From Candidatus Poriferihabitaceae bacterium (GTDB lineage Bacteria > Pseudomonadota > Gammaproteobacteria > Arenicellales > Poriferihabitantaceae): DNA of 64,000 nucleotides. Location: assembly GCA_965204165.1 (NCBI GenBank), contig OZ241969.1, positions 4,280,735 to 4,344,734 of the forward strand, given 5' to 3'. The translations under genes and the position numbers were made by a program. Positions 1,030-38,883 of this stretch are shown in pieces. Within the stretch, counting starts at the first letter, position 1. Each line of letters starts with the position of its first letter. Below the pieces are notes generated by a model that ran no database searches, was not told the DNA's origin, and worked only from the letters and a program-made list of their open reading frames with translations.

Positions 1030-1137
1030 GTAACTACTCACCCCTTATTTGCCCCATTATCCCCATCTGTAGGTTGACAGTATAGAATATTTTCCCTATC
1101 GTTCGGGTTTCGGACCACGAGACGAACCCGCACACAG

Positions 1138-1827
1138 ATGGGGAACCGCTATTTCGGCTCCAAGGGAGCTTCGGGGCTGTGCCAGCCTCTGATCGCCCTG
1201 ATGCCGCCGCACTCGGTGTATATCGAAACCCACCTTGGCGGTGGGGCGATCATGAAGCGCAAGCCGGGGGCCCTGCGGAACATCGGCATAGACTGCAACG
1301 CCAGGGCGCTGGAAGGATTCCAGTGCGACTATCCGGTGGAACTGGTGCATGGCTGCTGTCACCGGTATCTCCGGACGTTTCCGTTTGACGGCACGGAACT
1401 GGTCTACTGCGACCCGCCGTATCTGCAAAGTACGCGCAAGTCGGGCCGCCGCTACCGGCACGACTACAGGAACAGCGACCACGAGGGCTTGCTGGCGCTG
1501 ATCCGCGGCCTTCCCTGCTCGGTGATGATCTCGGGGTATCCTTCGCGGATGTACGACGACTGGCTGGGGGATTGGGGCAGCGTGTCGCTTCAGGTGATGA
1601 ACCAGGCGGGTGTGGTGACGGAGAAGGTGTGGTTCAACTTCACGCCGGACCGGGTTCACTGGCCGCGTTATGCGGGCCGGAACTTCACCCATCGCCAGGC
1701 GGTGAAGCGCAAGGCCCAGAGTTGGGGCCGGCGCTACCGGGGGATGCCGCATGGGGAACGCCTGGCGGTGCTGTCGGCGATGATGGCGGTGGAGGCGGAG
1801 GAGGCCGTGGAGGCGAGGGAGGAGTGA
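1138..1827 (+). CDS. compact D12-class (Dam-like) N6-adenine DNA methyltransferase, 229 aa, inside the IS66-family element
   Basis: Motifs occur in Dam order: RYFGSKG (cf. WAGGK), YIETHLGGGAIM (FxGxG-type SAM loop), IDCN, VYCDPPYL (DPPY catalytic motif), VMISGY. The stop lies 4 nt before the transposase ATG. Confidence 0.75.
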   Translation: MGNRYFGSKGASGLCQPLIALMPPHSVYIETHLGGGAIMKRKPGALRNIGIDCNARALEGFQCDYPVELVHGCCHRYLRTFPFDGTELVYCDPPYLQSTRKSGRRYRHDYRNSDHEGLLALIRGLPCSVMISGYPSRMYDDWLGDWGSVSLQVMNQAGVVTEKVWFNFTPDRVHWPRYAGRNFTHRQAVKRKAQSWGRRYRGMPHGERLAVLSAMMAVEAEEAVEAREE

Positions 1828-1831
1828 ATCC

Positions 1832-2552
1832 ATGGGGACGGTGAACCGGGTTGCGCTGCGCGAGGAGTTCGATGCGCACCGGGAGAGTTTCCGGTCACTG
1901 TGCAGGGAGGGCAAGGTCAGCGCGGAATGCGAGGTGCTGTTCAACGCCCTGTTGATGCTGATGGAGTTGATGATGGCGGTGTTCATGGAAAAGACCACCC
2001 GCAAGACGCCGGTGAACGCGAGCCTGCCGCCGTCCCGTGAGGGGAAGGATGAGACCGCGGCACGCCCCGGGAGCCGTGGCAGGGGACCGGAGCAGCCGCA
2101 CTGGGAAACGGGCCATACCCGTCTGGTGAGTGAAACCGGGGTATCCCCGGTGACGGAATGTTCGGCCTGCGGCAGGAACCTGGTGCGGGTACGGTGCGAG
2201 GGCCATGAGCGTCGCACCCTGGTGGACATCGTGTTCGAGACCCGGGAATACCACGTGGATGCCGAGATCAAGACCTGTCCGCGCTGCCATGCCGAGAACC
2301 GGGGCGCCTTTCCGGACGGCCTGCCGGGTCCGCTGCAGTACGGACACGGCATCATCGCGTTCGCCGCCCACCTGATGGTGGCGCAGATGGTGCCGCTGAA
2401 GCGTGTGGTCCAGACCATGAAGGCGATGACGGGACGGGCCATTGCCGAGGCGACCCTGCTGGCCTGGCTGCTGCGCCTGCACGATGCCCTGGCGGACTGG
2501 GAGGCTGCCGCCGTCGAGTGCCTGCTGGCCGCGCCGGCGCTGCATGTGGACG
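1832..2552 (+). pseudogene. IS66-family transposase, N-terminal 240 codons, truncated by the IS4-like insertion
   Basis: Identical to residues 1-240 of the 485-aa ORF 25496..26953 up to ...APALHVD. It then diverges exactly where the IS4-like inverted repeat begins. Confidence 0.85.
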
Positions 2553-4172
2553 CAGCAATTCCCGCCATCATCTGTAGTCCAATAAAGACGTGGGTTTGAG
2601 GCGGTGCTGGGGGAAGGCGGTTCGCAGACTTTTCCTGAAAAGGCGGTATGATCCGTCTGATTTCACGATATCGGATGATCTGTCATGTCGAAAGCCGTGT
2701 TTCGCAAGACCCTGAGCGTTCCGGGTCTGCTTCGGGTGGTGCGTGGGCATTTTGATCGCATTGAGGATCCCATCGTGAGCCGGGGCCTGGCACTGACGGA
2801 CTGCCTGATGTCGGGGCTGGCGGTATTCGCGCTGAAGTACCCGTCGCTGCTGAGTTTCGAGCAGGACGCACGGGACGGGGGCCGGATCCGGTCGAACCTC
2901 AGGGAACTGTACGGGGTTGGCCGCGCGCCGTCGGACACGGCGATGCGCGAGCGCCTGGACCTGGTGGACCCGCGTGCGCTGCGGGGTGCCTTCAAGGGTG
3001 TGTTCGCGGCCCTTCAGCGTGGCAAGGGTCTGGAGGGTTTCACCTGGCTGGGCCATCATCTGCTGTCGGTGGACGGGACGGGGTACTTCTCGTCGAAGAG
3101 TGTGCATTGCGACCATTGCTGCGAGAAACATCACCGTGACGGCAGCACCACCTGGTACCACCAGATGCTGGGGGCGGTACTGGTCCACCCGGAGCACCGG
3201 GAGGTGTTCCCGCTGGCGCCGGAACCGATCATGCGTTCGGACGGTTCGCGGAAGAACGACTGCGAGCGCAACGCGGCGAAGCGTCTGCTGCGTGACGTCC
3301 GTCGCGAGCATCCGCACCTGAAGCTGCTGGTGGTGGAGGATGCGCTGGCGTCGAACGGGCCGCACATCCGGCTGCTGGGGGAACTGGACATGCGGTATGT
3401 CCTGGGCGTGAAGCCGGGGGACCATGGGGAACTGTTCCGCCGTGTCGAGGCCTCGGCGGCGACCCGTACCGTGGAGAGGTCGGAAGGGGGCGGCAGCCGT
3501 TTCCGGCTCCGGTTTCTGAACGGCGTACCGCTGAACCAGGCGAACCCCGATCTGGCAGTGAACTTCCTGGCGTGCCGGGAGACCCGCCCCGATGGCCGGG
3601 AACTGCACTTCTCCTGGGTCACGGACATGGAGGTCACGGAATCGAACGCGCATGACCTGATGCGGGCCGGACGCGCCCGTTGGCGCATCGAGAACGAGAC
3701 GTTCAACACCCTGAAGAACCAAGGCTACGGCTTCGAGCACAACTTTGGTCACGGCAAGCGGCATCTGGCGACGGTGTTCGCCCACCTGACGATGCTGGCG
3801 TTCCTCATCGACCAGGTGCAGCAGCGGTGCTGTGCGCTGTTCCGGGCGGCCCGGGAGAAGGCGGGCGGTTCGAAATACCTGTGGGTGCGGTTGCGCGGGC
3901 TGTTCACGGAGTTCTACATTCCGGACTGGGAGACCCTGTACCGGGCGATCGCGTTCGGGCACCGGAAGACGGAGTTGGTGCCCTTCGACACTTCCTGACC
4001 CGGCGGCCGTGTCCGAATATGCAACGGGCCGGTTCTTCGGAGAATCATGTGGCCAGCAGACAATCCGGCACACCGCCCGGAGGGGGTTCCCTCCCCGCGT
4101 AGTCGGGGAACAGGGGCTCAAACCATGAAATCCGCCGAATCCAATCCGTGATAGGATTAGCGGGAATTGCTG
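2553..4172 (+). mobile_element. IS4/ISAs1-superfamily insertion sequence (1,620 bp)
   Basis: 13-bp terminal inverted repeats: CAGCAATTCCCGC at 2553-2565 and its reverse complement at 4160-4172. It contains a single transposase ORF. No matching target duplication is present (left flank GTGGACG, right flank GGCATGG). Confidence 0.75.
2685..3998 (+). CDS. DDE transposase (IS4 superfamily, DDE_Tnp_1-type)
   Basis: 437 aa. The N-terminus HFDRIEDP...LTDCLMSGLAVFAL resembles the ISAs1/IS4 N-terminal domain. Other motifs are LSVDGTG, VVEDALASN and the C-terminal RARWRIENETFNTLKNQGY (YREK-type motif). Confidence 0.8.
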   Translation: MSKAVFRKTLSVPGLLRVVRGHFDRIEDPIVSRGLALTDCLMSGLAVFALKYPSLLSFEQDARDGGRIRSNLRELYGVGRAPSDTAMRERLDLVDPRALRGAFKGVFAALQRGKGLEGFTWLGHHLLSVDGTGYFSSKSVHCDHCCEKHHRDGSTTWYHQMLGAVLVHPEHREVFPLAPEPIMRSDGSRKNDCERNAAKRLLRDVRREHPHLKLLVVEDALASNGPHIRLLGELDMRYVLGVKPGDHGELFRRVEASAATRTVERSEGGGSRFRLRFLNGVPLNQANPDLAVNFLACRETRPDGRELHFSWVTDMEVTESNAHDLMRAGRARWRIENETFNTLKNQGYGFEHNFGHGKRHLATVFAHLTMLAFLIDQVQQRCCALFRAAREKAGGSKYLWVRLRGLFTEFYIPDWETLYRAIAFGHRKTELVPFDTS

Positions 4173-4175
4173 GGC

Positions 4176-14329: not shown

Positions 14330-14351
14330 CCGGGGGCGCACACGCGCGATT

Positions 14352-14560
14352 CCGCTGGGCCGCTGGGCCGCTGGGCCGCTGGGCCGCTGGGCCGCTGGGC
14401 CGCTGGGCCGCTGGGCCGCTGGGCCGCTGGGCCGCTGGGCCGCTGGGCCGCTGGGCCGCTGGGCCGCTGGGCCGCTGGGCCGCTGGGCCGCTGGGCCGCT
14501 GGGCCGCTGGGCCGCTGGGCCGCTGGGCCGCTGGGCCGCTGGGCCGCTGGGCCGCTGGGC
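14352..14560. repeat. 8-bp microsatellite CCGCTGGG x26
   Basis: Perfect tandem units counted directly (209 nt). All three minus-strand frames read (AAQRPSGP)n without stops, as shown by ORFs 12731..14593, 13854..14792 and 14326..14562. Confidence 0.95.
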
Positions 14561-15031
14561 AAGGCATTCTATCGGCTCCGTCCGACCTGTCAACTCCCTC
14601 CCGTGACCTTATTCTTCCCTTATCCGGGACGGCGGAATCCACCGGCATGACCAGGGCATTACCGGCCATCGAAGCCGGGTATCGTGCGCCTTCCACTTCC
14701 ATTCCCGGGCTTTTGCCTGGTGCAGTGTGGCTCGACATTTCCGATTCTCCGGGTTGGTGGATCCAGGCGTCTCCGCGGACATCGGCACCCACGTTCGCAT
14801 CCCCGTAACCGCCTTATGCAGCCGGACGCCGGAAGCGCCGCTCCCGCGAACCCATGGCGGCGACGGGACGGCACTGTCCGTCATGCCGGAACATAACCGA
14901 ATGATTGTGAGTTAATTGTGTTTGTTCTGACCCGGATAGTGAGGATTTGGGGCGGCGAAAACCGGCGGCAGCAATCCAGCCGATGGTCTGCAGGGCCGGC
15001 GCCGGCGTCAATGTCGGGCCGGGGGAATCGG

Positions 15032-15197
15032 TGATTTGACTCACATGATCCCGGTAAAAATCCATGAGCATGCGTATCCTTGCCGAGCCAGTCCTCGAAC
15101 TCCCGCATGACCCTAATCCGTGTCTGTGGAACTTACAACCCCAGGCAGCCAGGGCGCATGCTACACTCGATTCACCGAGGTCAGCCAAGGTACTTCA
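15032..15197. repeat. imperfect direct repeat, copy B (degenerate gene-end fragment with stops)
   Basis: Same conserved blocks as 6982..7170. Minus-strand frames give ...IRVMREFEDWLGKDTHAHGFLP here, against ...LRLLRAFKERRGKAAHAHGFLP in copy A. Confidence 0.6.
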
Positions 15198-23417: not shown

Positions 23418-25462
23418 TTGAAATTGGCAGCTGACGATTTTCGCGTCGATTTCCGAGGTGCACGCGGATCAAACACCGGAGACGAATTCCACGAACTGTG
23501 GGCGATTCGACATGCTCTTTCCATGTTGGATCCACATAGTAGCCTATCCTCCATCATGCTGGAAGGTGTTAAATCGGGCAATGAAGATGGGAATTTCTGG
23601 GACGGCGTGGATTGTACATTGCTGTACTGTGGAGATTCTTTGGCCGAAGCAAAACACGTAGAAATTCAACAACTAAAGTATTCAGCCGCAAATCCAACGA
23701 AGAAATGGACAGTTGCTCGGGCCTGTGCCGGTAGAGGGGGTACAGGTTCAGCTTCGTTGATTCATAGACTAGGTCAAGCGTTTCACGCCCTGCGTCAAAT
23801 ACGCAAAGACAAAAAACTTGAGTCAATCAAGGTAAAACTCGTGACCAACCAACCGATTTCTCCAGAATTGTTGCGGGTCATTTTCGAAGCCAGGGAAGAT
23901 GTGCCTGAAACATACGCGGTGCCTTGGAAAACCGGTGATTCTAAATTGCACCGTCTCGTCTCCGCCAGTGGTCTTTCTCCTAGTGAATTTCGGTCCTTCG
24001 CATTTGTTTTCGATTGTGTAACAAGTGCTAATGTGGGTTCCCGTTTTTCGATGGAAGATGGAATTCTCACCACTATAGCTACGTTTCAAGATGTAGAGTT
24101 TCAGACAACATTTCTCCAACTCAGGAATTTTGTTCGCAAGCGTATGCTACCGGAAGCTGCAGGAGAACAAATTACGAAACAGAATATTCTTATTCAGTTT
24201 GGAGTATCTGATGAGAGCGCATTGTTTCCGTGCCCACCGGCGATGAAACCAGTATCCGGTTTAGTATCCAGAGATGAATCAGAGAGAATCGTAGAAACCA
24301 TGAAGCAAGGAACGCAAAGGATTTGCTTCCATGGTGGTGCCGGAGTGGGAAAGACTACAGCATTGCAAGAGATCAATTCATCATTGCCGGCAAATTCTCA
24401 CATGATCGTTTTTGATTGCTATGGAGCAGGATCATATTTGGATGCCAGCAAATTACGCCACCGGCCAAGAGATGCTTTTACCCAGCTATCCAACGAATTG
24501 GCCGAACGATTACGGATACCTCTCTTTCTTCAACGGAGTGAATCCATAGATTATGCAAGAGCTTTCTGTCGAAGACTGGAAATAGCTGCAGAAACTCTTA
24601 AGTTAGTCTCCCCAGATGCCTTTCTGGTTATTGCCGTGGATGCAGCGGACAACTCAATCTCAGCAGCAAATGCATTCTATGGAAATGATACTTGTTTTGT
24701 TCCTGAACTCATGTCATTTCATCAGCTGCCAGAAAATGTACGAATTATAGTAAGTGCAAGAACAGGGCGACTCGATGAGTTGAGCCCCCCATCTGCATAT
24801 GTACGTATCGAACTATCTGGCTTTACGAAAGATGAAACAACACAAAATGTCAACAGATTTTGGAATGCTCCAGCAAATTGGATAGACGTCTTTCATGAAT
24901 TATCCAATGGTATTCCTCGCGTTCAAGATTACGCATTTGAATGGGCGAGAGAAAAATACGAAAAAGCAATGGATGTATTGCTACCTGAAGGAAAGGATCT
25001 TGATCAGATATTCGATGAAAGTTTTGCGTTCGCACTGAAGAAATCTGGTAACTCTGACCTTGTTCAAAATGTTTGTGCCGCTTTAATCGTGTTGCCAAGG
25101 CCGATTCCAATAACCGAATTGGCATATTTACTTCAGCTGCCAGTTTCGCAGGTTTTAGACATCTGTGCTGATTTGGCACCAGGAATACGCATGCAGGGGA
25201 ATAATATTAGTTTCTCAGATGAAGATTTTGAAGATTTTGTTAGAAGAAAGGGAATAGATGAAGAACAAAACCTTCAAGTGCTAGCGGCAGAACGATGCCT
25301 TTCGCAAGCCGAATGCAATACATACGCCGCCAGAAATGTCGCACATCTCTTGTTTGTTTCGGGAAGACATCAAGAACTACTGGAGTTTGTGGAAAAGGAG
25401 CCGGAGCCAAACTCTGAGGCTGTTCCTGATCCTGTTCAAAGACGTGAGATCAACGATGAAAG
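23418..25462 (+). pseudogene. giant nuclease-like / P-loop NTPase gene, 5' part (codons 1-681 plus 2 nt), interrupted by the IS66-family element
   Basis: TTG start after GGAG. Walker A GGAGVGKTT at nt 24333-24359, Walker B FLVIAVDAADN at nt 24621-24653, and N-terminal GDEFHELW...VDCTLLY...VEIQQLKYS. The reading frame terminates 4 nt inside the IS. Confidence 0.8.
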
Positions 25463-25495
25463 GTAACTACTAGCCCCCTGTGGAGCACCTGAAGG

Positions 25496-26953
25496 TCATT
25501 CAGGTGTCTTGAGCATGTGGGCGGCCTTTCCCTTGAGAGCGATCTCGATGGCGGCAAGAGGATTGTAACCCTGATAGGACATGGACAGCAGATAGCTTGA
25601 GACCCGGCACCATGCGACGGCGTATTTGTATGTACGGAAACAGCCGGACACTTTCTGCTTGACCTTGGCCATCCGGAGGTTCCTTTCGGACAGGTTGTTG
25701 GTGAAGCTGACCGCGGGGTCCCTGGCGAACCGCAGGACTTCGGTTTCATGCTTTCCCATGGCCTCCCACAGGTTCTCCGCGTCGGATTTCGCGATGCGCC
25801 CGCGCTTTTTCCCGCCGGTGCGCACAGGGGTTGCCGGGAGTTCCTTCTTCCCCTGGGTCAGGATGGTCCGGTAGCGCTTTTGCAGGGCGGCGCATTCTTT
25901 TGCGGACAGCACCTTGTCCGGGCTTTCCCTGACCTTGCGGGCGGCGTCCCGGAGCAGTTTCTTCATCCGCCTCGCCCAGGCCGGATCATGGGCGTCGATG
26001 AGGAACTGCAGATCCCGCAGGAGGTGGCCGCCGCACAGGGCGTGGTCGCAGTGGTCACAGGCAAGATAGCTGGCCCAGCGGTCATGGACCAGGACGCCGC
26101 CGTACCGGGGGATGATGCCGATGTCCCGGATCGCCTCGCCGCCCCGCTTGGGGTGGCAGAACTTCAGGGTGAGGTCTCCGGCGCTGCAGTCGTGCAGCCA
26201 GTGGTTCTTGCGGTCGATGCGGATCGAGGTCTCGTCCACATGCAGCGCCGGCGCGGCCAGCAGGCACTCGACGGCGGCAGCCTCCCAGTCCGCCAGGGCA
26301 TCGTGCAGGCGCAGCAGCCAGGCCAGCAGGGTCGCCTCGGCAATGGCCCGTCCCGTCATCGCCTTCATGGTCTGGACCACACGCTTCAGCGGCACCATCT
26401 GCGCCACCATCAGGTGGGCGGCGAACGCGATGATGCCGTGTCCGTACTGCAGCGGACCCGGCAGGCCGTCCGGAAAGGCGCCCCGGTTCTCGGCATGGCA
26501 GCGCGGACAGGTCTTGATCTCGGCATCCACGTGGTATTCCCGGGTCTCGAACACGATGTCCACCAGGGTGCGACGCTCATGGCCCTCGCACCGTACCCGC
26601 ACCAGGTTCCTGCCGCAGGCCGAACATTCCGTCACCGGGGATACCCCGGTTTCACTCACCAGACGGGTATGGCCCGTTTCCCAGTGCGGCTGCTCCGGTC
26701 CCCTGCCACGGCTCCCGGGGCGTGCCGCGGTCTCATCCTTCCCCTCACGGGACGGCGGCAGGCTCGCGTTCACCGGCGTCTTGCGGGTGGTCTTTTCCAT
26801 GAACACCGCCATCATCAACTCCATCAGCATCAACAGGGCGTTGAACAGCACCTCGCATTCCGCGCTGACCTTGCCCTCCCTGCACAGTGACCGGAAACTC
26901 TCCCGGTGCGCATCGAACTCCTCGCGCAGCGCAACCCGGTTCACCGTCCCCAT
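25496..26953 (-). CDS. IS66-family transposase (TnpC-type), 485 aa
   Basis: Zinc-finger CSACG...CPRCH, then DDE-region motifs ALHVDETSI, VLVHDRWASY and NNLSERNLR. Length and layout are typical of IS66 TnpC. Confidence 0.9.
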   Translation of the reverse strand: MGTVNRVALREEFDAHRESFRSLCREGKVSAECEVLFNALLMLMELMMAVFMEKTTRKTPVNASLPPSREGKDETAARPGSRGRGPEQPHWETGHTRLVSETGVSPVTECSACGRNLVRVRCEGHERRTLVDIVFETREYHVDAEIKTCPRCHAENRGAFPDGLPGPLQYGHGIIAFAAHLMVAQMVPLKRVVQTMKAMTGRAIAEATLLAWLLRLHDALADWEAAAVECLLAAPALHVDETSIRIDRKNHWLHDCSAGDLTLKFCHPKRGGEAIRDIGIIPRYGGVLVHDRWASYLACDHCDHALCGGHLLRDLQFLIDAHDPAWARRMKKLLRDAARKVRESPDKVLSAKECAALQKRYRTILTQGKKELPATPVRTGGKKRGRIAKSDAENLWEAMGKHETEVLRFARDPAVSFTNNLSERNLRMAKVKQKVSGCFRTYKYAVAWCRVSSYLLSMSYQGYNPLAAIEIALKGKAAHMLKTPE

Positions 26954-26957
26954 GGAT

Positions 26958-27647
26958 TCACTCCTCCCTCGCCTCCACGGCCTCCTCCGCCTCCACCGCC
27001 ATCATCGCCGACAGCACCGCCAGGCGTTCCCCATGCGGCATCCCCCGGTAGCGCCGGCCCCAACTCTGGGCCTTGCGCTTCACCGCCTGGCGATGGGTGA
27101 AGTTCCGGCCCGCATAACGCGGCCAGTGAACCCGGTCCGGCGTGAAGTTGAACCACACCTTCTCCGTCACCACACCCGCCTGGTTCATCACCTGAAGCGA
27201 CACGCTGCCCCAATCCCCCAGCCAGTCGTCGTACATCCGCGAAGGATACCCCGAGATCATCACCGAGCAGGGAAGGCCGCGGATCAGCGCCAGCAAGCCC
27301 TCGTGGTCGCTGTTCCTGTAGTCGTGCCGGTAGCGGCGGCCCGACTTGCGCGTACTTTGCAGATACGGCGGGTCGCAGTAGACCAGTTCCGTGCCGTCAA
27401 ACGGAAACGTCCGGAGATACCGGTGACAGCAGCCATGCACCAGTTCCACCGGATAGTCGCACTGGAATCCTTCCAGCGCCCTGGCGTTGCAGTCTATGCC
27501 GATGTTCCGCAGGGCCCCCGGCTTGCGCTTCATGATCGCCCCACCGCCAAGGTGGGTTTCGATATACACCGAGTGCGGCGGCATCAGGGCGATCAGAGGC
27601 TGGCACAGCCCCGAAGCTCCCTTGGAGCCGAAATAGCGGTTCCCCAT
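26958..27647 (-). CDS. compact Dam-like N6-adenine DNA methyltransferase (identical to 1138..1827)
   Basis: Same 229-aa translation as copy 1, with the DPPY and FxGxG-type motifs. Confidence 0.75.
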   Translation of the reverse strand: MGNRYFGSKGASGLCQPLIALMPPHSVYIETHLGGGAIMKRKPGALRNIGIDCNARALEGFQCDYPVELVHGCCHRYLRTFPFDGTELVYCDPPYLQSTRKSGRRYRHDYRNSDHEGLLALIRGLPCSVMISGYPSRMYDDWLGDWGSVSLQVMNQAGVVTEKVWFNFTPDRVHWPRYAGRNFTHRQAVKRKAQSWGRRYRGMPHGERLAVLSAMMAVEAEEAVEAREE

Positions 27648-27763
27648 CTGTGTGCGGGTTCGTCTCGTGGTCCGAAACCCGAACGATAGGGAAAATATTC
27701 TATACTGTCAACCTACAGATGGGGATAATGGGGCAAATAAGGGGTGAGTAGTTACGATGAAAG

Positions 27764-30700
27764 ATTGTTAATAGCGATTCGGGTATGTCGAAAAGCAGAG
27801 AATACTGCGCGTGCTTTACGCTTCGTACTTATTGGCGCGGAAGCACGCCGTACCAGTGAATCGACTCGATCACTGTTGGCATCATACCCAAAACTAACGG
27901 CCAGGTACGCAAAGGAGACAGCAAGTCGTCTTATATTAAGTGATCCAAAAGAAATAGAACATCATGGCCCTCTTATTTTTCATTCTATCGCTGAGGATGC
28001 CAGAAAAGGAGATAAGGTCGGATATAGAGTGGGATGGCGGCTTCTTCAAGCGTGGTGGGTAGCGCGTAGGGATGTTTATAAGTCAGAATTTGAAAAACAT
28101 GGATATGAAGATCCTTGGCCAATAAAGCTTGACGACTTTGCATCGATTGTCTACGGGTCTGCGGTATTAATGGGTCCAGATGCCGCGATTACGGAACTCA
28201 AGAGATTTCGGCAAATGAAATTTGCCATTAATGTAGGTAAGAAATTCGTAACCAGATTACTTACCGAAGGTCGCTTTGAATTAGCTGAAGAAATTGCAAT
28301 GAGGTTCCATCCGTGGAAGGCAGTTTTTCTTCTGGTGCCTCTTGCCCTTGCTGGTCGGAACATTGACTTGCATCGATTAGGAAGAGGGCTATCTGCATTA
28401 AAGAGACGATTTCGGTTAGATATCGAATTAGCAAATTATGATGATGAATACAGAACAGGAGAATATGTTCTAGATACAGTTCTTACTGCATCTGAAATCC
28501 TAATTGGAAATGGCGTTTGTACAGATGTCGGAAAAAATATTCTTTCGTCGTTCACTGACCCCAGTTTGCGTAATTTAGAACAGCGACATGAATTCGAGAT
28601 TTCGTTGATTGATGCAATTTTTAGGTCATACTCATTAACTGAGTTGATGCTGGACAAGGACATAACATCGTCAGATATATTTCAATTTGAACCACAATCA
28701 AGTGGAATCGAAAACTATACAGACAGACATAGTATCCATCATGACAGAGATTTCGGTGAATTTATAAATACGATTTCTCCCTTTTATATCCTTCGGGCGA
28801 AAACCATTCTTTCAGCTCAGTGTAATAAGAGTTTCGATCTATGTATTGATGAATTCAAGAAAGGATTTGACACTGATTTCTGGCGTTTGAGCCACAGACG
28901 TCGGGGCAAGGAATACCGTGCAGTACTGTGTGACCGTTTGACAACCCTTATTGCCTTTGGGGCCAGTTCTCAGGAGATTTATTCGTACGCAATAATGTAT
29001 CTCGAGAAGGGAGAATATCCTACCAATAATTTCTATGAACGATTCGCTGTTTTTCGTGAACTTCATAGCAATATAGTTGATAGTATTCTTTCCACTGCAA
29101 ATGCCACCATTTCTGAGCGATGTGGATCCGAAGAAAAAGCTCATAATCTTTCCGAGTTAGCTGAATTGTTGACGTCGTTCAGTCCAAGGGATGCTGATGC
29201 GTTATTCCAAGAAGCCATAATTATTGCAAGTCAACTTGACAAAGAATCAATAGATCAAATTCGACTTTTTCACAGTTTGATTGGCCATTGCAAAACTGTA
29301 ATTCCTAAAGAAAAACATCGTTTCTATGCATCCAGGCTATCTGAAATAATTTTTGATGCGGGTATACGTCTAAAAGATTTGGAGGACTTTCCATGGTGCA
29401 ATGCGATGGAATCCATTTCTCTACTGGACATTCCTACAGCACTGGCAAGTACCGCAAGATGGAATGATTTTAATCTGCAGGGTATAGACACAATTTTACC
29501 TCCTGTCATTTCAGAGGGGTTAAGGACAAATGATCTAGACAGTACACAAGCTTCGGCACTGTTGTGCTTGCTTCGTTATGCACGTTTGGAAACTTTAGAG
29601 GGAATATTTAAGAAAGCTCTGGATGAAGGTAAATCAGTAGCTTCCAACTTGGCAGAGGAATTCGCACAAGACTGTCTCGTTGGACGTATCAGATTTTTTG
29701 AGGATTTCGCTTCCCTCATATCCAAGCATGGTACTGGAGAATGGATAAATAAATTAGACAAGCAAAATGAATTCATTGTCCGAATTTCACAGGATGAAGA
29801 AGAATCCAGTAACACGACCGAAGTAACTCTGAAAAATTCTGAAATCATTGAAAAGCATGTTTGGGAACATGCAACCTTGACTGACAGCGATCGTTTGTTG
29901 GCTGAAGCTGAACACCTAATTTCGAAGTCCAGGTCTGAAGGAGAACACATATCATTGCGAGATGTGTTTTTCTACGCATCACAGAAAGTGCCTGTTGGGA
30001 ATCTGTGTGAGTATCTTGATGCACTTGTTGGAATATTAGAAAAAAATCGTGATTATCAAATACTGGACGCTATTTTGGGATCTGCTCAATGCTGGAAATC
30101 AAAATGGTCCGTTCAGAATTGGAGTAAAAATAATATTCCGAAGTTGATTTCTGATTTCTTGCCGCTATTCACGCGGCACATTCCTTGGGAAGACAGACTC
30201 AACCCAGCAATTGAATTGGCTCAGATGGATGGAGAAAAAACGCAAATTTCATTGTTAAAAGGTATTGAGTCTTCCGCATTGGAATTGAGCGTACTTGAAA
30301 TACTCACTATTGCAAATCTCATTTCAATAAATTCTGATCCTGGAGAATCCGCTAATTTATTTGAATGGTATCTTGAAAGACTTTTCAATCGTATCCCTGA
30401 AAACGAACGTGAGGATGTCGATGATGTTGATATACCAGTCGACGTTACTAGTTCTGTTGCAAGATTTCTTTATGCACATCTCAGCGATGTCGATTTGCGT
30501 ACTAGATGGCGTGCAGCACATGCAATGCGGAGATTAGCTCGACTTGGTGATAGCAATACACTAACTGAAATAGTTAATCAGTATGAACGTATCGAAGAAA
30601 AAGGATTCAGAGCTGTAGGGACACCATTTTATTGGCTTGCTGCACGGCTTTGGTTGATGATCTCCCTGGACAGAATTTCACATGAAACGCCTGAATTATC

Positions 30701-32144
30701 GAAACCTTTTATCGAAAAGTTACTAAATATAGCTCTTTCTGATGATTTTCCTCACATGCTGATACGTGCTTATGCAACTGACGCATGTTTGAAACTCAGT
30801 GAAAATGGATACGTGCAACTTGACTCAACAAACATTGGCGCACTACAAAGAATTAATTCACCATCGAATATTGATAAATCAAGTCGTGTGGGTCGTACTG
30901 AATCTTTTGAGTCGTGCGGAATTAGCGATGATTCACGGAGGTTTGAATTTGATTGGATGGATACGCTTAGATATTGGTATGAGCCATGGCTAAATATTTT
31001 TCCGGAATTGACTACAAGGAGATTTCTTGAATTATCAGAAGCATGGATAGTTGATCGTTGGGGGATTACAGAACAATCGAAACGAACCAGGTATGATCCA
31101 CGTTCTTGGAGATTCCAAGACAGTACATATGGTTCCTGGAGCAATAGCCATGGGAGCCTTCCCACACTTGAACGATTCCAGAATCACCTAGAGTGGCATT
31201 CCATGTGGTGTACTGCTGGAGAATTGGCCAAGTCATATTCAGTCAGAAAAGAGGAATACGAAGAAGTCGATGAACTGGCCATGAAAATAGCCCAGGGAAA
31301 ATTATCGATTGATTCATTATGGCTCAGTGATCTGATTGGAGCAGTTCCTTTACAGCAGCATCGCTGGATTCCAGAAGCAGATGAATTAAGCTCATGGATG
31401 AATACAATCACTGACGATGCTTTTTTTCGCGAACTATTTCCCGAGGATCGATGGGATTGGATCGTGGCTAATGCTGAATTGAATTCTGTATATCGCGACC
31501 GAGAAGAAAGAGTTCAGATAAACACAGGGCTTGTTTCCCCAGAGACAGCTCATGCGCTTGTCCGCGCATTGCAAACCACAAAAAGTCAATACCTCTATTT
31601 TATCCCGCCGGAAAATTCTGAGTCAGAAATTAATGAGGCTGATTATAGTCTCTCTGGATGGTTGTCTAACATTGACGGTGACACTCGATTTGATAGTAAA
31701 GATCCTTATTGCCACAACATCAATCTCCCTAGAGGCTTACCTGGGGAGGGAATTGTCAGCTGCTTGGATCTGCAACAACGGACATCCCTTCCATCAATTA
31801 ATTGGTTTCGTGAAGATTCGGAAATGCCATCTGTAATATATGAAACATGGGGGGATTCGGATAGAAATGGTACCTATCAATATCGCCCAAAAAATGCAGT
31901 TGAATACTTTGGGTACAGGACACTCATCAGAAAAGATGAGATGGTTAAATTCATGCGGATTAAAGAAGAAGATTTGATTGTTCAAGTTGGAGTAACACGA
32001 TATGACAAACCGAGAGAAGAACCGAGATATGATACGGAAGGTAGAAATAGGGCTATCTTCGACAGAGTGTTTGTCCTCAGACGAGAAGGAGATATCGAAT
32101 CTGCCGAGCGAAGTTTTGAAGCTTGGTTCCAGAATCGTCAATGA
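27764..32144 (+). pseudogene. giant nuclease-like / NTPase gene, 3' part (completes codon 682, runs to codon ~2141)
   Basis: After removing the IS and one TSD copy, the frame continues ...EINDE-RLLIAIRVCRKAEN... The ~1,460 aa are helical-repeat-like, with one HEAT-like stretch RWRAAHAMRRLARLGD and no catalytic motif recognised. Confidence 0.8.
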
Positions 32145-33062: not shown

Positions 33063-36032
33063 TCACAAACCAAGTTCACGGTCCACAACCTTGGGCCTGC
33101 GGGGCGGTTCCATCCCCGATTCCCGGCCCTGATCCCTCGACCTGGACGTCCTTTCGCCGCCCTTTTCCGGTACCGACTTCCCCGTTATCTCCGAATCTTT
33201 CGTGATGCCTTCCAACGCGGAGAGCCGTTCCCCGGTGGCCGCTTCCAGTTGCTCCTTCAGTCCCGCCCTGTCGTCCGTGACCAGTTCCGCCCGATCCCTG
33301 GCACGGCTGATCTCCACATAGAATGACTTCTGGGTCGTCAGGTTCGGATGCCCCGCCTCCATGGCGGCGATCACGTTGTCCACGGTCCTGCCCTGGAACG
33401 CGTGCACCGTCGATGCCCAAGCATGGTCCAGATGCCGCATCTGCGGATCGTTTTTTTCAAGTTCCAGTCTGCGGCCATCCTCCAGCTGGAAGGATACGCG
33501 GCCATTGCCGACTTTCGTCACTTCCGCGGTGCGACTGTTGAACAGTCCCAGCCCGCGGTCGTTGCGGGTCCAGCGGATTCGGTCACCGGCCCGAAGCTCG
33601 ATCCCCTCGGCCTTGTAGACCTCGGCCCCGCCGGTTTTCCCGCCGATTTTCTCGGGTTCCCACCCCACAATCTGCCCTGCGTTCCCGTTCGGGCCCTCCA
33701 ACATTACCTTGCCAGTCTTGCCGTCCACGCCCAGGACCTGGCGTTCGTCGCCCTTCTCGATGCCGATCCGCCTGTACGTCCGGTGAAATGCCACCACATC
33801 CCCCGGCGCATAGTTGGCGGGGAGGGCCTTCTCGGCGTTGGTGAATCCCTGCGACACCAGCCGCTGGCCCTGGAAGGCGGGGCCGTGGATCCGGCCCTCG
33901 CGCTCCAGGCGCTCCCGTATATGGCCGTTGATGTCCTTTCTCAGTTCATGGCTCGGCGCCATCACCCCGGTTCTTTCGCGCTTCTCCGGGGTCAGGCGGA
34001 GCCAACGGGCGGCGACCGCCCCGGCGATGTTGTCCGCCTTCACCTCGGCGATATTGGCCCCGAGCTTCCCGAACGCCTTTTCCACGTTCCCGGCCAGACT
34101 CGCCTCGACGGCGGCCTTCAGGTCCGGATCCCGCTGGCGCAGGATCTCGTCCATCACCGCCGTCTTCATGCCTCCCTCCTGAAGCTGGGCGAAGGGCTTG
34201 CCCGCGTCCACGGCTTCGAGCTGCTTGCTGTCCCCCACCAGTACCACCCGGGGAATCCGCAATGCCTTCGCGATCCGAAGGAGGTTCCGGGCCTGTACGG
34301 TGGAAGCGAGGGACCCCTCGTCCACTACCAGCACGGTCCTTTTGAACATGTCACGGAGTTCCCGTTCGCCTTTCCTCGTCAATCTTCCCTCGGCCACGCC
34401 TTCATTGCGTGCGAGAAACATCTGCAGGGTCTCTGATTCGATCCCCGCCTCCATAGATAACGTGCCCGCCGCCGAGGCCGAGGGGGCGAGGCCCGCCATG
34501 CGGTAGCCCTGCTGCTCCGCCAGCGCCCGGGCTCGGTTCAGCATCGTGGTCTTGCCGGTGCCGGCGTATCCCTGCACTCCCACCACCCGGTCCCTGGCGG
34601 ACAGGATCAGCTTCACGGCCTCCTTCTGACCCTCTGTAAGCGGCCCCTTGTGGAGGCGGGCGCTCACCGCCCAGCTCCGCATCACCGGACGGCCACGGCC
34701 CTGGCCCTCGCGCATGAGGCCGATGGTCTCGCGCTCGTCCGCCAGCGCCCGGTCGGTGGTCAGGCCGTCCCCCGTGTGGAAAGCGGGGGCGACGTACAGG
34801 CCGTTCTCCTTCCTCAGGCCCTCCACCGCCCGCTCCGCCGCCTCCACGGACACCATCCCGGGCTTCCAGGAAAGCGCGGCGGCCAGAAGCTCCGTCCGGC
34901 TGAACACCGCTTCCCGTTCCCCCAGATGCGCCACCGCCCATTTTATTGCCTCAGTAGCGAGGTCCTTCGATTCGCTTGCCGGTATGGGAATATCCGCCAT
35001 CGACGGCTCCACGACCCTGCCGGTCTTCCCGGCTTTCTCGGGTGCCGCATCCGAAGCGGAAAAATCCTTGTCGGATTCCCCGTAAGCCACACCTGAAGCA
35101 TGAATTGAACCGGCGGTGAGTGCATTGGCATCGAAGCCCATGGTCTTCGCCTGTTCCCGCCAGTGCGCCCGGAGCGCATCCTTGTCCACGTCCCGTTTCG
35201 ACGCCCGCGTCATCAGCGCCGCCCGCTCGGCCAGGCGCTGGTTGCCGGCGGTGCCGCCCCCGTCCGCCGTCCTCTCCGCCACCGCGGCCTCGATCTCCGC
35301 CCTCCGGGTGGAGAACACTTCAATTACCCTGCGGGATATCCCCGCGATCTCGAACCTTCCGTCCGCATGGGTTTTCTCGATCCCGTAACCGAGCTTCATC
35401 AGGCTCCTGGCGAGTTCGCTCCGGTAGATCATGCCGACCAGTTTCTGGTTGCGGTACAGCCCCTCGTTGGCCATGGTCCGCCATTTCCCGTCTTCTCCCC
35501 GCACCATGTTGGCGAGGACGGCATGGGTGTGCAGCTGGGGATCGAGATTGCGTGACGTGTCGTGCAGGAAGGTGGCAACCACCGTCTTCTGATTTCCCGC
35601 GCGGACCAGCCGACCGGTCGCGGGGTCCCGCAGACGGGTTTCCGCGGCGTTTTTCTCGACCCAGGCCAGCGACTTCGCAACCGCCTGCCGATGTGCTTCC
35701 ACAACGCGCTTTTCATCTCCCCCCACCAGTGCGGCCAGGGAAACGGACTTGGGGGCGGAGAAGGTCAGGTCCCGGCCCGGGCGGTGAATGACATTCCCTT
35801 CCCTGTCCATCCGGCCGAGCCGCTGCCCGCTGCCGTCCGGCACCTCGCCCCGGAGGACCGCCTTGAACATCTCCGGGTCCACATGGCCCTCGAGGCCGAG
35901 TTCGGCCGCACCCCGCCCCGCCCAGGCGCTCATCCGAAGGTGTTCGGGATCGTCCTTCGCGTAATACCCGTCCCGTTCGTAGTAGGAGGCGCCCTGGGCG
36001 GCCGAAGCCACGGAGCCGACCGACACTACCAC
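33063..36032 (-). CDS. traI: MOBF-type conjugative relaxase/helicase (TrwC/TraI-like)
   Basis: Relaxase motifs: N-terminal AASYYE..DGYYAKDD, LTFSAPKSVS and HDTSRNLDPQLHTHAVLANM (3-His). The helicase part has GYAGTGKTT and VLVVDEGS. Confidence 0.9.
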   Translation of the reverse strand: MVVSVGSVASAAQGASYYERDGYYAKDDPEHLRMSAWAGRGAAELGLEGHVDPEMFKAVLRGEVPDGSGQRLGRMDREGNVIHRPGRDLTFSAPKSVSLAALVGGDEKRVVEAHRQAVAKSLAWVEKNAAETRLRDPATGRLVRAGNQKTVVATFLHDTSRNLDPQLHTHAVLANMVRGEDGKWRTMANEGLYRNQKLVGMIYRSELARSLMKLGYGIEKTHADGRFEIAGISRRVIEVFSTRRAEIEAAVAERTADGGGTAGNQRLAERAALMTRASKRDVDKDALRAHWREQAKTMGFDANALTAGSIHASGVAYGESDKDFSASDAAPEKAGKTGRVVEPSMADIPIPASESKDLATEAIKWAVAHLGEREAVFSRTELLAAALSWKPGMVSVEAAERAVEGLRKENGLYVAPAFHTGDGLTTDRALADERETIGLMREGQGRGRPVMRSWAVSARLHKGPLTEGQKEAVKLILSARDRVVGVQGYAGTGKTTMLNRARALAEQQGYRMAGLAPSASAAGTLSMEAGIESETLQMFLARNEGVAEGRLTRKGERELRDMFKRTVLVVDEGSLASTVQARNLLRIAKALRIPRVVLVGDSKQLEAVDAGKPFAQLQEGGMKTAVMDEILRQRDPDLKAAVEASLAGNVEKAFGKLGANIAEVKADNIAGAVAARWLRLTPEKRERTGVMAPSHELRKDINGHIRERLEREGRIHGPAFQGQRLVSQGFTNAEKALPANYAPGDVVAFHRTYRRIGIEKGDERQVLGVDGKTGKVMLEGPNGNAGQIVGWEPEKIGGKTGGAEVYKAEGIELRAGDRIRWTRNDRGLGLFNSRTAEVTKVGNGRVSFQLEDGRRLELEKNDPQMRHLDHAWASTVHAFQGRTVDNVIAAMEAGHPNLTTQKSFYVEISRARDRAELVTDDRAGLKEQLEAATGERLSALEGITKDSEITGKSVPEKGGERTSRSRDQGRESGMEPPRRPKVVDRELGL

Positions 36033-38065: not shown

Positions 38066-38883
38066 CCAGCGATCCACCTTGCCAGCCCGGCTGTTGTCGT
38101 TCACCGCGATCGTCCATTCCCTGCATCCCTGATCCGGCCGCGGCAACCATATACAGCCCTGTCCGCACAGTCGGCAAGGGTCCCGTTTAGTGAATAACAT
38201 ACCTTCGGATCGACACCGTATCGCTCGGCTGCGATGAGGCGCGAACGGGTACGGGAATAAATTTTGGAATTCTTTTAAGCGCAGCAGGAGTATGTGCGAG
38301 ATCATCCTGGTTACGAGATGCGCACGGCGGCGCATATGGTCCGAACAACTCCAGTTGTGTATGCACTTTGCCAACAACCACTTCCGGATCGACTGTTTGT
38401 ACCATGCCATGGTCAGACTGGAAGCACCGTCTCCTTTCCATCCCCGGGCTCCTTCCTGTGCGACTGCACCCAGAATCGGCCTGAATCGATCACGGATTGA
38501 CGAACGCTACCCAGCGTCAAGGATTCACTCGTCGATGCCATCGAATCCAGCTTTCCCGGGAGGGCGAAAAGTAGAGTTAGAGCGGGATGGAATATGCATT
38601 GATCATGCTCTTCCGGTGGCTTGCGCCAACCTTAAGGCACTGCCGGTTCATTCATACCGGAATCAGCGGGAGGAAATTCTCTTTCGTGATCCTTATCAGG
38701 AGATTGGAAATAGCATGGGATTTTCCGAATACTACTTGGTATTCTATAGATTGATGAAGTCAATACACCATCTCCACCAGTATCGGAAACCTGACGAACT
38801 CTGAAGTGCTTCTTCTATGCTGACAAGGGACGCTGCTTCAGGTTCTGACCGAACTCTTTCAGACTTACCATGGAGATTCCAAG

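What the first reader, a model, noticed from the sequence alone, without database searches (positions are those of the whole stretch)
25463..27755. IS66-family element that carries a compact Dam-like methyltransferase instead of tnpA/tnpB
The 2,293-bp element has IS66 hallmarks: GTAACTACT... termini, a perfect 8-bp TSD, and a 485-aa TnpC-type transposase with a zinc finger and HVDET / VHDRW / NNLSER motifs. Its only other gene is a 229-aa ORF with D12-class methyltransferase motifs in Dam order (FGSKG, ETHLGGG, CDPPY). That ORF ends 4 nt before the transposase ATG, which suggests co-translation. Canonical IS66 elements encode TnpA and TnpB at this position. Two copies in this window (the second at 1030-2552) have identical translations, so methyltransferase and transposase appear to move as a unit. 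A mobile orphan adenine methylase could reprogramme host methylation, blunt restriction systems, or couple transposition to replication as Dam does for IS10/IS50.
Basis: partly seen in the sequence, partly recalled or inferred. Interest (0 to 1): 0.6.

Follow-up and report, generated by a model that had tools for sequence, protein, structure and literature searches.

The report
Insertion sequence carrying its own methylase
A real, recently inserted jumping gene carries, ahead of its transposase, a compact DNA adenine methylase gene with its own conserved promoter. The same methylase cassette has been taken up by unrelated jumping-gene families that are multi-copy in marine symbiont genomes.

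Summary
Window 25463-27755 is a complete 2,293-bp IS66-family element with GTAACTACT inverted repeats and an 8-bp duplication. Removing it restores a 2,141-aa Avs3 defence gene. It encodes a 229-aa Dam-like methyltransferase and, 4 nt later, a 485-aa TnpC transposase.

- The TnpC belongs to the single-gene (ISBst12-like) branch, so nothing "replaced" tnpA/tnpB.
- The second copy (1030-2552) is truncated inside tnpC by another IS.
- The methylase is not a one-off capture. Thousands of 70-95% identical homologues exist, fused to short IS66 TnpC, canonical IS66 TnpC or an unrelated ISNCY/IS4-like transposase, at up to 14 or more copies per genome.

The enzyme keeps invariant catalytic motifs and a Dam-like fold, lacks the Dam target-recognition domain and is under purifying selection.

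Every copy has the same promoter, TTGACA-NN-ATAG-N10-CTATGGT. This dyad also precedes some 46-52% identical plasmid-borne homologues.

I infer a self-regulated methylase cassette whose promoter also drives the transposase. This could give IS10/Dam-like epigenetic control of transposition, but that is untested. A plain anti-restriction passenger remains a strong rival.

Verdict: new variant of a known kind, moderately interesting.

The parts
25455..25462 (.). Left copy of the 8-bp target-site duplication, GATGAAAG
   Evidence: Empty-site reconstruction restores one ORF.
25463..25477 (+). Transposase-side terminal inverted repeat, GTAACTACTAGCCCC
   Evidence: The same GTAACTACTC[GA]CCCC ends occur in related elements.
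25496..26953 (-). tnpC: 485-aa IS66-family DDE transposase of the short, single-gene (ISBst12-like) type
   Evidence: Nearest annotated relatives are single-gene IS.
26954..26967 (-). Gene junction: GGAGGAG Shine-Dalgarno-like run, methylase TGA stop (26960-26958), then the 4-nt spacer ATCC before the tnpC ATG
   Evidence: Read. Gaps of 4-7 nt are conserved in relatives. The genes overlap by 13 nt in the ISNCY-type elements.
26958..27647 (-). 229-aa compact Dam-like N6-adenine DNA methyltransferase. It has motif I (ETHLGGGA), motif IV (DPPY) and a basic helical C-terminal tail, and no Dam-type TRD.
27683..27711 (-). Sigma-70-type promoter of the methylase-transposase operon: -35 TTGACA, 17-nt spacer, -10 TATCGT
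   Evidence: The design is conserved in all 88 distinct upstream regions examined.
27686..27703 (.). Conserved dyad ATAG-N10-CTAT spanning the promoter spacer and overlapping the -10 hexamer. Candidate operator or methylation target.
   Evidence: The same dyad lies upstream of non-IS homologues.
27741..27755 (-). Methylase-side terminal inverted repeat, GTAACTACTCACCCC
27756..27763 (.). Right copy of the target-site duplication, GATGAAAG
1030..2552 (+). Second, truncated copy. It holds the IR (1030-1044), promoter dyad (1082-1099), complete methylase gene (1138-1827) and about the first 240 codons of tnpC (1832-2552).
2552..4173 (+). ISNCY/IS4-like IS without a methylase (transposase 2685-3998) that cuts the second copy

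Best explanation
SHOWN
- This is an active-looking IS66-family insertion sequence of the single-TnpC (ISBst12-like) branch.
- At its 5' end it carries a complete cassette: a strong sigma-70 promoter plus a compact orphan N6-adenine DNA methyltransferase gene. The transposase gene follows 4 nt after the methylase stop.
- The cassette is a conserved mobile module. It is the first gene in three short-or-canonical IS66 lineages and in an unrelated ISNCY/IS4-like family. It is more conserved than its partner transposases and is under purifying selection.
- Its promoter always holds the dyad ATAG-N10-CTAT overlapping the -10. The dyad also accompanies some 46-52% identical non-IS homologues on plasmids.

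INFERRED
- The enzyme is catalytically active.
- The methylase is the only protein common to all these contexts. I therefore infer that it recognises the dyad, by methylating it, by binding it, or both, and so controls its own promoter.
- That promoter lies between the left IR and the transposase gene, with no other promoter-like site inside the element. Transposase synthesis would therefore be tied to the methylation or occupancy state of the dyad.
- The expected behaviour is a burst of methylase and transposase when the element arrives unmethylated in a new cell or is hemimethylated after replication, then shut-off. This would be a self-contained version of Dam control of IS10/IS50.
- On plasmids and phages the ancestral cassette probably serves as an early, self-limiting anti-restriction methylase.
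For: Anatomy and insertion
- Searches give the ends, the duplication, the ORFs and the restored target gene.
- The transposase is assigned to the IS66 family.

The methylase is a real enzyme
- G7-S8-K9, E30-T-H-L-G34, G36-A37 and D92-P-P-Y95 are invariant in 30-32 sequences.
- The AF2 core has pLDDT of about 90, with motif I after strand 1 and DPPY after strand 4.
- The best PDB matches are E. coli Dam structures, E = 4e-6, TM 0.52.
- PHROG_56 'DNA methyltransferase' scores 2.9e-21 and PADLOC MTase_II scores 3.5e-16.
- dN/dS is 0.17-0.39.

Spread
- 3,360 homologues were found, and the top 120 are 72-95% identical.
- Of 80 genome loci, 22 pair the methylase with short IS66 TnpC, 54 with the ISNCY-like transposase and 2 with canonical-type TnpC. 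The remaining two are a solo gene and a contig end.
- Copies within a genome are identical and bounded by IRs. At least 14 loci occur in OY762279.1 and at least 12 in OY762706.1.

The methylase is more conserved than its partners
- Methylase identity to the window is 72-78%, against 56-64% for TnpC in the same elements.

Promoter and dyad
- All 88 distinct upstream regions have the design. T-A-G and C-T-A-T are invariant while the N10 varies freely.
- The same design precedes non-IS homologues.
- In the window the dyad occurs only at the two IS copies, against 0.16 expected by chance.

Coupled expression
- Gaps of 4-7 nt or a 13-nt overlap are conserved between the two genes.

Precedent
- Dam sites in IS10/IS50/IS903 promoters restrict transposase expression to just after replication, as summarised in PMC9296519.
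Against: - No methylation data exist for any member, so activity, target sequence and any effect on the promoter are all unproven.
- The half-sites are 15 bp apart centre to centre. That is unusual for a simple dimeric repressor.
- No ATAG/CTAT motif occurs in the terminal repeats of either IS family, so any control would act on expression only.
- Many TnpC relatives at 50-56% identity lack both methylase and dyad and look like complete IS. The methylase is therefore not needed for transposition.
- The dyad is absent upstream of several equally distant homologues in P2-like phages and in Acinetobacter, Sphingobium-type and Methylomonas plasmids.
- The protein is below the curated D12/Dam thresholds.
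- The C-terminal tail, the presumed DNA-reading part, is poorly modelled with pLDDT of 40-65.
Confidence: 0.5

Rival explanations
1. Plain passenger gene (a 'transporter IS'). The methylase is an anti-restriction or host-modifying orphan enzyme that benefits the IS only indirectly. For example, it could help the plasmids or conjugative elements that carry the IS to establish in new hosts, or alter host methylation. The dyad merely autoregulates the methylase. The position of the transposase downstream is incidental.
For: - The wider family (40-52% identity, same length) is annotated 'DNA adenine methylase' on plasmids, 128 of 171 of them conjugative. One example lies next to the transfer and stb genes of a MOBF plasmid. 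The family also occurs in P2-like phages.
- Methylase-less relatives of both transposases exist.
- The window element itself sits in a region with a TrwC relaxase and a coupling protein.
- IS with methyltransferase passengers are a recognised category (PMC11891212, citing Siguier et al.).
- Transposable Mu-like prophages carry broad-specificity adenine methylases for anti-restriction (PMC3299994).
Against: - Passenger genes are usually sporadic and dispensable. Here the gene is more conserved than the transposases and was intact in every copy examined. It also sits in a fixed position, with conserved tight coupling to three or four different transposase lineages.
- An IS does not itself cross between cells, so a direct anti-restriction benefit is hard to see.
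- No close relative was found on viral contigs or sequenced plasmids.
Confidence: 0.33
2. Broad or non-specific adenine methylase. Because the Dam-type target-recognition domain is missing, the enzyme methylates most adenines, as Hia5 and Hin1523 of Mu-like prophages do. It would give general protection or genome-wide epigenetic effects.
For: - The segment between motif I and motif IV is 45 aa here against 136 aa in DpnM.
- Hia5-type enzymes show that Dam relatives with aberrant TRDs can be non-specific (PMC3299994).
Against: - Hia5 keeps a TRD-sized region of about 90 aa and is not detectably related beyond the shared fold.
- This family has a conserved basic C-terminal domain with many invariant residues, which could read sequence.
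- A conserved specific dyad accompanies the gene.
- Fourteen or more copies of an unregulated non-specific methylase per genome would probably be costly.
Confidence: 0.1
3. Catalytically dead methylase-fold protein that acts only as a DNA-binding regulator or transposition cofactor.
For: - Scores are below threshold on the curated D12/Dam models.
- The promoter dyad suggests sequence-specific binding.
Against: - All AdoMet-binding and catalytic residues (GSK, ETHLGGGA, D52, DPPY) are invariant or nearly so across the family.
- Association with unrelated transposases argues against a transposase-specific cofactor.
Confidence: 0.05
4. One-off capture or deletion derivative with no further spread.
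For: None found.
Against: - Thousands of homologues exist.
- Multi-copy identical elements occur in many complete genomes across Gammaproteobacteria, Alphaproteobacteria, Chloroflexota and Acidobacteriota.
- Methylase-bearing lineages form deep branches on the TnpC tree.
Confidence: 0.01

Closest known systems
IS66 family, single-ORF ISBst12-type subgroup (ISfinder classification; Gourbeyre et al. 2010, from my own knowledge)
   Same: - TnpC-type DDE transposase, GTAA... inverted repeats, 8-bp duplication and no tnpA/tnpB.
- The nearest annotated relatives are lone IS66 transposase genes in Planococcus, Bacillus, Geobacillus and Deinococcus plasmids.
   Different: - It carries an extra 5' gene with its own promoter.
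- It is 2.29 kb rather than about 1.4-1.9 kb.
- The transposase appears to depend on the methylase promoter.
Transporter IS (tIS) with passenger genes, e.g. IS220 with a methyltransferase (PMC11891212, citing Siguier et al. 2009)
   Same: An IS bounded by its own IRs that carries a non-transposase gene, here a methyltransferase.
   Different: - The same passenger is shared at 70-79% identity by unrelated IS families.
- It is better conserved than the transposases.
- It sits upstream in one operon with them and brings a conserved regulatory dyad.
- I could not check what kind of methyltransferase IS220 carries.
Dam control of IS10/Tn10, IS50/Tn5 and IS903 (Roberts et al. 1985; Kleckner 1990; summarised in PMC9296519)
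   Same: A possible methylation site overlaps the -10 of the promoter that drives the transposase. This would allow coupling to replication or to entry into a new cell.
   Different: - In those elements the methylase is the host's Dam and the site is GATC, also present in an IR.
- Here the IS brings its own enzyme, the site is not GATC and none is seen in the IRs.
- The link is inferred, not shown.
Orphan adenine methylases of mobile elements: plasmid and P2-like phage 'DNA adenine methylase' homologues, and Hia5/Hin1523 of Mu-like transposable prophages (PMC3299994)
   Same: - The plasmid and P2-like phage homologues share the compact family at 40-52% identity over the full length.
- Some of them share the promoter dyad.
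- All lack a restriction partner.
   Different: - The IS-borne clade is one tight cluster of at least 70% identity, welded to a transposase.
- Hia5 is only an analogue: 281 aa, with a TRD-sized region and no detectable specific similarity.
E. coli Dam / DpnM (D12 class, alpha-group m6A methyltransferases)
   Same: - Motif order is the same: N-terminal GxK, motif I, acidic residue after strand 2, DPPY.
- The best structural match is Dam.
- There is weak sequence similarity around motifs IV-VIII.
   Different: - About 90 residues shorter between motif I and motif IV, so no Dam-type TRD.
- An extra conserved basic C-terminal tail.
- Below curated family thresholds.
- Specificity unknown.

Membership tests
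IS66 family | TnpC-type DDE transposase | tested here: met
   Pfam DDE_Tnp_IS66 scores 1.2e-40. NCBIfam transpos_IS66 scores 239.9 bits against a cutoff of 180.
IS66 family | Terminal inverted repeats beginning GTAA | tested here: met
   GTAACTACT... at both ends. Conserved in related elements.
IS66 family | 8-bp target-site duplication | tested here: met
   GATGAAAG on both sides. Excision in silico restores a 2,141-aa ORF.
IS66 family (canonical group) | tnpA and tnpB accessory genes upstream of tnpC | tested here: not met
   The element holds only the methylase and tnpC. The TnpC also lacks the IS66 C-terminal element that is seen in the canonical-type L063 protein.
IS66 family, ISBst12-type subgroup | tnpC is the only gene | tested here: not met
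   A second gene, the methylase, is present. The closest TnpC relatives do fit the subgroup. This element is a derivative of the subgroup with one added gene.
D12-class / Dam family N6-adenine DNA methyltransferase | AdoMet-binding motif I (FxGxG-like) and catalytic motif IV (DPPY), in alpha-group order | tested here: met
   ETHLGGGA (30-37) and DPPY (92-95) are invariant in the family.
D12-class / Dam family N6-adenine DNA methyltransferase | Class-I Rossmann-like methyltransferase fold | tested here: met
   AF2 model with pTM 0.71 and core pLDDT of about 90. Top Foldseek PDB hits are E. coli Dam.
D12-class / Dam family N6-adenine DNA methyltransferase | Score above the curated family threshold | tested here: not met
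   PF02086 scores 20.4 bits against 22. TIGR00571 scores 22.9 against 114.85.
D12-class / Dam family N6-adenine DNA methyltransferase | Target-recognition domain inserted between the AdoMet-binding and catalytic halves | tested here: not met
   Query residues 41-85 (45 aa) correspond to DpnM residues 52-187 (136 aa). The model shows only one strand and one helix there.
D12-class / Dam family N6-adenine DNA methyltransferase | m6A formation at GATC | not testable with these tools
   No methylome or enzymology was available. The supplement with the Thiohalocapsa PB-PSB1 methylase assignments is not held.
Transporter IS (tIS) | Extra gene inside the IRs that is not needed for transposition | tested here: inconclusive
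   The gene lies inside the IRs. Methylase-less relatives exist, so it is not essential. Its conservation and fixed operon position suggest it is more than cargo.
Methylation-regulated IS (IS10/IS50/IS903 type) | Methylase target site in the transposase promoter and/or IR that modulates activity | tested here: inconclusive
   A conserved dyad overlaps the -10. The enzyme's target is unknown, and no such motif lies in the IRs.

The most novel reading that the evidence does not exclude
A portable epigenetic switch. A self-regulated m6A methyltransferase cassette (promoter, dyad and gene) has been recruited by several unrelated IS families as a built-in, host-independent controller of transposase expression. 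This lets these IS regulate themselves in hosts that lack Dam. It may also explain their expansion to many copies in sponge-symbiont genomes.
Probability: 0.3. Interest if true: 0.8.

Novelty: new variant of a known kind. Interest (0 to 1): 0.6.

Why it matters
Methylation control of transposition is a textbook example, but it has always relied on the host's Dam enzyme. An IS that carries its own autoregulated methylase would be a self-contained version of that control. If the same cassette serves unrelated transposases, it would be a general regulatory module rather than cargo.

There are practical consequences too.
- These elements are abundant, at ten or more copies per genome, in long-read assemblies of marine symbionts. 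Each copy adds an orphan methylase gene. They could account for unassigned m6A motifs and confound methylation-based binning.
- The enzyme family is compact, at about 220 aa without a Dam-type recognition domain, and its specificity is unknown. That may interest enzymologists.
- The window copy has knocked out an Avs3 antiviral gene inside a conjugative-element-like region. This is a concrete case of an IS disabling a defence gene.

Tried and rejected
- Near-identical DNA in the plasmid collection: no match.
- Close relatives on IMG/VR viral contigs: only 28-44% partial matches, so the IS-borne clade is not phage-borne there.
- Relationship to the small methylase of Haemophilus phage HP1: none.
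- Hia5/Hin1523 non-specific methylases as family members: rejected. They are 281 aa and retain a TRD-sized region. I kept them as an analogy only.
- Methylome evidence from Thiohalocapsa PB-PSB1, which carries a copy (L077): the main text does not mention the element, and Supplementary Data 5 is not held.
- Exact-sequence look-ups of the window methylase and of the host GlyA: not on record.
- Literature searches for IS66 or IS elements with a DNA methylase, and for a CATAG/CTATG methylation motif: nothing specific.
- A motif shared between the dyad and the terminal repeats of either IS type: none seen.
- ISfinder and REBASE could not be queried, so prior cataloguing there is not excluded.
Full report
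**1. The observation**

The element spans 25463-27755 and its genes read on the minus strand.
- Its ends are GTAACTACTCACCCC and GTAACTACTAGCCCC, matching at 13 of 15 positions. It is flanked by a perfect 8-bp repeat, GATGAAAG.
- Removing 25463-27763 in silico fuses the flanking ORFs (23418-25466 and 27744-32144) into one open 2,141-codon frame. The boundaries and the duplication are therefore correct, and the insertion is recent.
- The element is 58-68% G+C and sits in a 40% G+C island.
- The two ORFs are as described. The 485-aa protein is an IS66-family transposase.
- The methylase stop and the tnpC start are 4 nt apart, with GGAGGAG just upstream.
- The second 'copy' (1030-2552) is 100% identical but is only the left 1,523 bp. 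It ends where an ISNCY-like IS begins (2552-4173), and the rest of tnpC is missing. This copy lies inside an IS110-family transposase gene fragment.

**2. The 229-aa protein**

Curated models give only weak, sub-threshold hits: PF02086 at 20.4 bits against 22, and TIGR00571 at 22.9 against 114.85. Other evidence is clear.
- 3,360 homologues were found. The best 120 are 72-95% identical and 219-232 aa long.
- G7-S8-K9, E30-T-H-L-G, G36-A37, D92-P-P-Y95 and many C-terminal residues are invariant.
- An AlphaFold model (pTM 0.71, core pLDDT about 90) has the alternating strand-helix order of a class-I methyltransferase. Motif I follows strand 1 and DPPY follows strand 4.
- Its best PDB matches are E. 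coli Dam structures.
- PHROGs and PADLOC both call it a DNA or Type II methyltransferase.
- Between diverged elements dN/dS is 0.17-0.39.
- In a profile alignment to DpnM, residues 21-40 match DpnM 31-51 and residues 86-158 match DpnM 188-265. The intervening segment is 45 aa here against 136 aa in DpnM, so the Dam/DpnM target-recognition domain is absent.
- In its place the family has a conserved, basic, helical C-terminal tail (residues about 170-220), which is modelled with low confidence.

I conclude that this is very probably an active m6A DNA methyltransferase of unknown specificity. It should not be assumed to recognise GATC.

**3. How widespread it is, and with which partners**

A scan of one genome per species returned 195 relatives, of which 80 were kept.
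- 22 loci have the methylase followed by a short IS66 TnpC. These elements are 2.24-2.29 kb with GTAACTACTC[GA]CCCC ends.
- 54 loci have it followed by a different DDE transposase. This protein gives weak Pfam DDE_Tnp_1 and DDE_Tnp_1_assoc hits, and PGAP annotates its nearest relatives as 'ISNCY family'. These elements are about 2.14 kb with CAGCAGTTCTCATTTTGG ends.
- L063 and L064 have it followed by a 589-aa canonical-type TnpC (DDE_Tnp_IS66 plus the IS66 C-terminal element) in an element starting GTAAGCG, with no tnpA/tnpB.
- One locus is a solo gene and one is cut by a contig end.

Copies within a genome are 99-100% identical over exactly the element length. At least 14 loci are in OY762279.1, 12 in OY762706.1 and 7 in OZ241359.1. 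These are lower bounds, because only 80 of 195 loci were kept.

Hosts include Pseudomonadales-type sponge symbionts (Ca. Poriferihabitaceae, Rariloculaceae), Chromatiales, Alphaproteobacteria, Caldilineaceae and Acidobacteriota. Metagenomic contigs show the same two-gene units, with 4-7 nt gaps or a 13-nt overlap between the genes.

The methylase is more conserved than its partner. It is 72-78% identical to the window protein where TnpC is 56-64% identical. It is 71-75% identical even in the elements whose transposase is unrelated.

**4. Where the transposase comes from**

The nearest annotated relatives of the window TnpC (33-36% identity) are lone 'IS66 family transposase' genes on Bacillus, Planococcus, Geobacillus, Deinococcus and cyanobacterial plasmids.

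A metagenome scan with TnpC gave 80 relatives at 50-56% identity.
- 8 have the methylase upstream.
- 23 with at least 750 bp of upstream sequence do not.
- Most of the remainder have the GTAAC IR only about 245 bp upstream of tnpC, so they are complete one-gene IS.

On a neighbour-joining tree, the methylase-less elements form one large clade. The methylase-bearing ones form several deep branches. The methylase-less elements lack the dyad.

Likewise, the ISNCY-like transposase has methylase-less relatives. One is in the window itself, at 35% identity. Others are in cyanobacterial plasmids.

The cassette was therefore added to one-gene IS, and there have been few gain or loss events. It is not required for transposition as such.

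**5. The promoter and its dyad**

A sigma-70-type promoter lies inside the left end: TTGACA, a 17-nt spacer, then TATCGT, at 27711-27683. It is the only such site inside the element.

All 88 distinct upstream regions of IS-borne methylase genes align as TTGACA-NN-ATAG-N10-CTAT(GGT).
- The -35 hexamer, T-A-G, and C-T-A-T are invariant.
- The 10 intervening bases vary freely.
- The flanking bases usually extend the dyad to CATAG/CTATG.

This holds for the IS66-type, ISNCY-type and canonical-type elements alike.

The same design recurs upstream of non-IS homologues that are only 46-52% identical.
- Two tandem dyads lie upstream of the gene on a Xanthomonas MOBF plasmid, a Shewanella plasmid and Photobacterium pP9014.
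- An exact TTGACACCATAG-N10-CTATGGT occurs in L118 and L119.

ATAG-N10-CTAT has 8 specified bases, so chance gives about 0.004 per 260-bp region. In the 64-kb window it occurs only at the two IS copies, against 0.16 expected.

The dyad is absent upstream of the P2-like phage, Acinetobacter, Sphingobium-type and Methylomonas homologues.

The methylase is the only protein shared by all these contexts. The simplest reading is that it recognises the dyad. That is an inference.

In the ISNCY-type elements the conserved ATG lies 7 nt after the -10, which suggests a leaderless mRNA. This too is an inference.

**6. Mechanism**

Shown:
- A complete IS.
- A conserved operon-like arrangement.
- A conserved methylase with intact catalytic motifs.
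- A conserved dyad overlapping the -10 of the only promoter-like site upstream of both genes.

Inferred:
- The methylase controls that promoter, by methylation, by occupancy, or both.
- It thereby gates the transposase. The element would be expressed when unmethylated (entry into a new cell) or hemimethylated (after replication) and silenced otherwise.

This would work like Dam control of IS10/IS50/IS903 (summarised in PMC9296519), but with the enzyme supplied by the element. I put about 0.5 on the overall statement and about 0.3 on the specific epigenetic-switch step.

The main rival, at about 0.33, is that the gene is a self-regulated anti-restriction or host-modifying passenger.
- This fits the wider family's home on conjugative plasmids and P2-like phages.
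- It also fits the recognised 'transporter IS' category (PMC11891212).

A non-specific methylase (by analogy with Hia5; PMC3299994) and a dead enzyme are less likely. A one-off capture is refuted.

**7. Comparison and novelty**

The element is an IS66-family member by transposase, ends and duplication. It fails both the canonical definition (no tnpA/B) and the one-gene ISBst12-type definition (it has an extra gene).

The methylase has the D12/Dam motifs and fold. It fails the curated thresholds and lacks the TRD.

IS with methyltransferase passengers are known as a category. I found no paper describing this cassette, its sharing between IS families, or its promoter dyad. ISfinder and REBASE could not be consulted.

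I rate it a new variant of a known kind, with interest 0.6.

**8. Context**

The window comes from a gammaproteobacterium related to sponge symbionts.
- Its GlyA is 100% identical to a protein on a 4.99-Mb contig. The 90% cluster of that protein includes a Ca. Poriferihabitaceae genome.
- The element interrupts an Avs3-type antiviral STAND gene (PADLOC Avs3a, 1e-87 and 1e-109).
- That gene lies next to a TrwC relaxase and a coupling protein. The element therefore sits in a conjugative-element-like island.

Noticed in passing
window 23418-25462 + 27764-32144: The IS interrupts a 2,141-aa Avs3-type antiviral STAND NTPase gene. The two halves match PADLOC Avs3a at 1e-87 and 1e-109, and there is a weak NACHT hit. 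The gene lies in a 40% G+C island (about 23-33 kb) within a 62-72% G+C genome. This is an IS-mediated knockout of a defence gene.
   Followed up: partly
window 2552-4173: A 1.6-kb ISNCY/IS4-like IS without a methylase. Its IRs are GCAGCAATTCC / CCAGCAATTCC and its 437-aa transposase is at 2685-3998. It cuts the second IS copy. The transposase is 35% identical to the transposases that are fused to the methylase cassette in other genomes.
   Followed up: partly
window 612-1029: A C-terminal fragment of an IS110-family transposase gene (Pfam Transposase_20, 3e-20) abuts the left end of the truncated IS copy. This makes a nested pile of three IS types in the first 4.2 kb.
   Followed up: partly
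window 33063-38410: A TrwC-type relaxase (989 aa) and a TrwB/VirD4-type coupling protein (794 aa) lie next to the low-GC defence island. Housekeeping genes follow (glyA, tgt, queA, uvrD, from about 43 kb). This suggests an integrated conjugative element.
   Followed up: partly
window 14352-14560: A perfect tandem array of 26 copies of the octamer CCGCTGGG. A 9-bp x3 array lies nearby at 14241-14269. The octamer array is at or near the start of an ORF with outer-membrane efflux protein (OEP) domains on the opposite strand (12731-14593). An 8-bp unit would shift the frame with each copy change, which could allow phase variation.
   Followed up: no
window 7004-7069 and 15042-15107: Two 66-nt direct repeats, 82% identical and 8 kb apart. 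Their nature is unknown.
   Followed up: no
L026, L037, L065 etc. (ISNCY-type elements), about 36 nt upstream region of the methylase ATG: The conserved methylase ATG lies 7 nt after the -10 hexamer, so the mRNA is probably leaderless. The longer 'MVRAMGN...' ORF start called in these loci falls inside the -10 and is probably wrong.
   Followed up: partly
L084 (metagenome contig, 4,882 bp): Two copies of the 95%-identical element lie in tandem. The methylase genes are at 200-889 and 2511-3200, and the second copy is truncated in tnpC.
   Followed up: no
L098-L100 (P2-like phages SEN5, 3LV2017, SW3) and L082: The phage homologues lack the ATAG/CTAT dyad. They share a different conserved upstream pattern, ...GTGCTGGCCAT...ATCGAG-ACCGTCATTTTTA-CAGTGCTGCAGG. 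Parts of it (TGCTGGCCA, CTGCAGG) also flank the dyads on the Xanthomonas plasmid. Its meaning is unknown.
   Followed up: no
protein P0454 (cluster of P0026): A 603-aa member sits in a 90%-identity cluster of 223-aa methylases. It may be a methylase-transposase fusion or a read-through gene call.
   Followed up: no
MT-less IS66 relatives, e.g. L168, L175, L160, L154: The methylase-less relatives share two features: a cTTGACAGGTTTTT box about 210 nt upstream of tnpC, and a GGTCGAAAAAAGCnATGATATnATA box about 45 nt upstream that resembles an extended -10. Their 5' region is therefore organised differently from that of the methylase-bearing elements.
   Followed up: no
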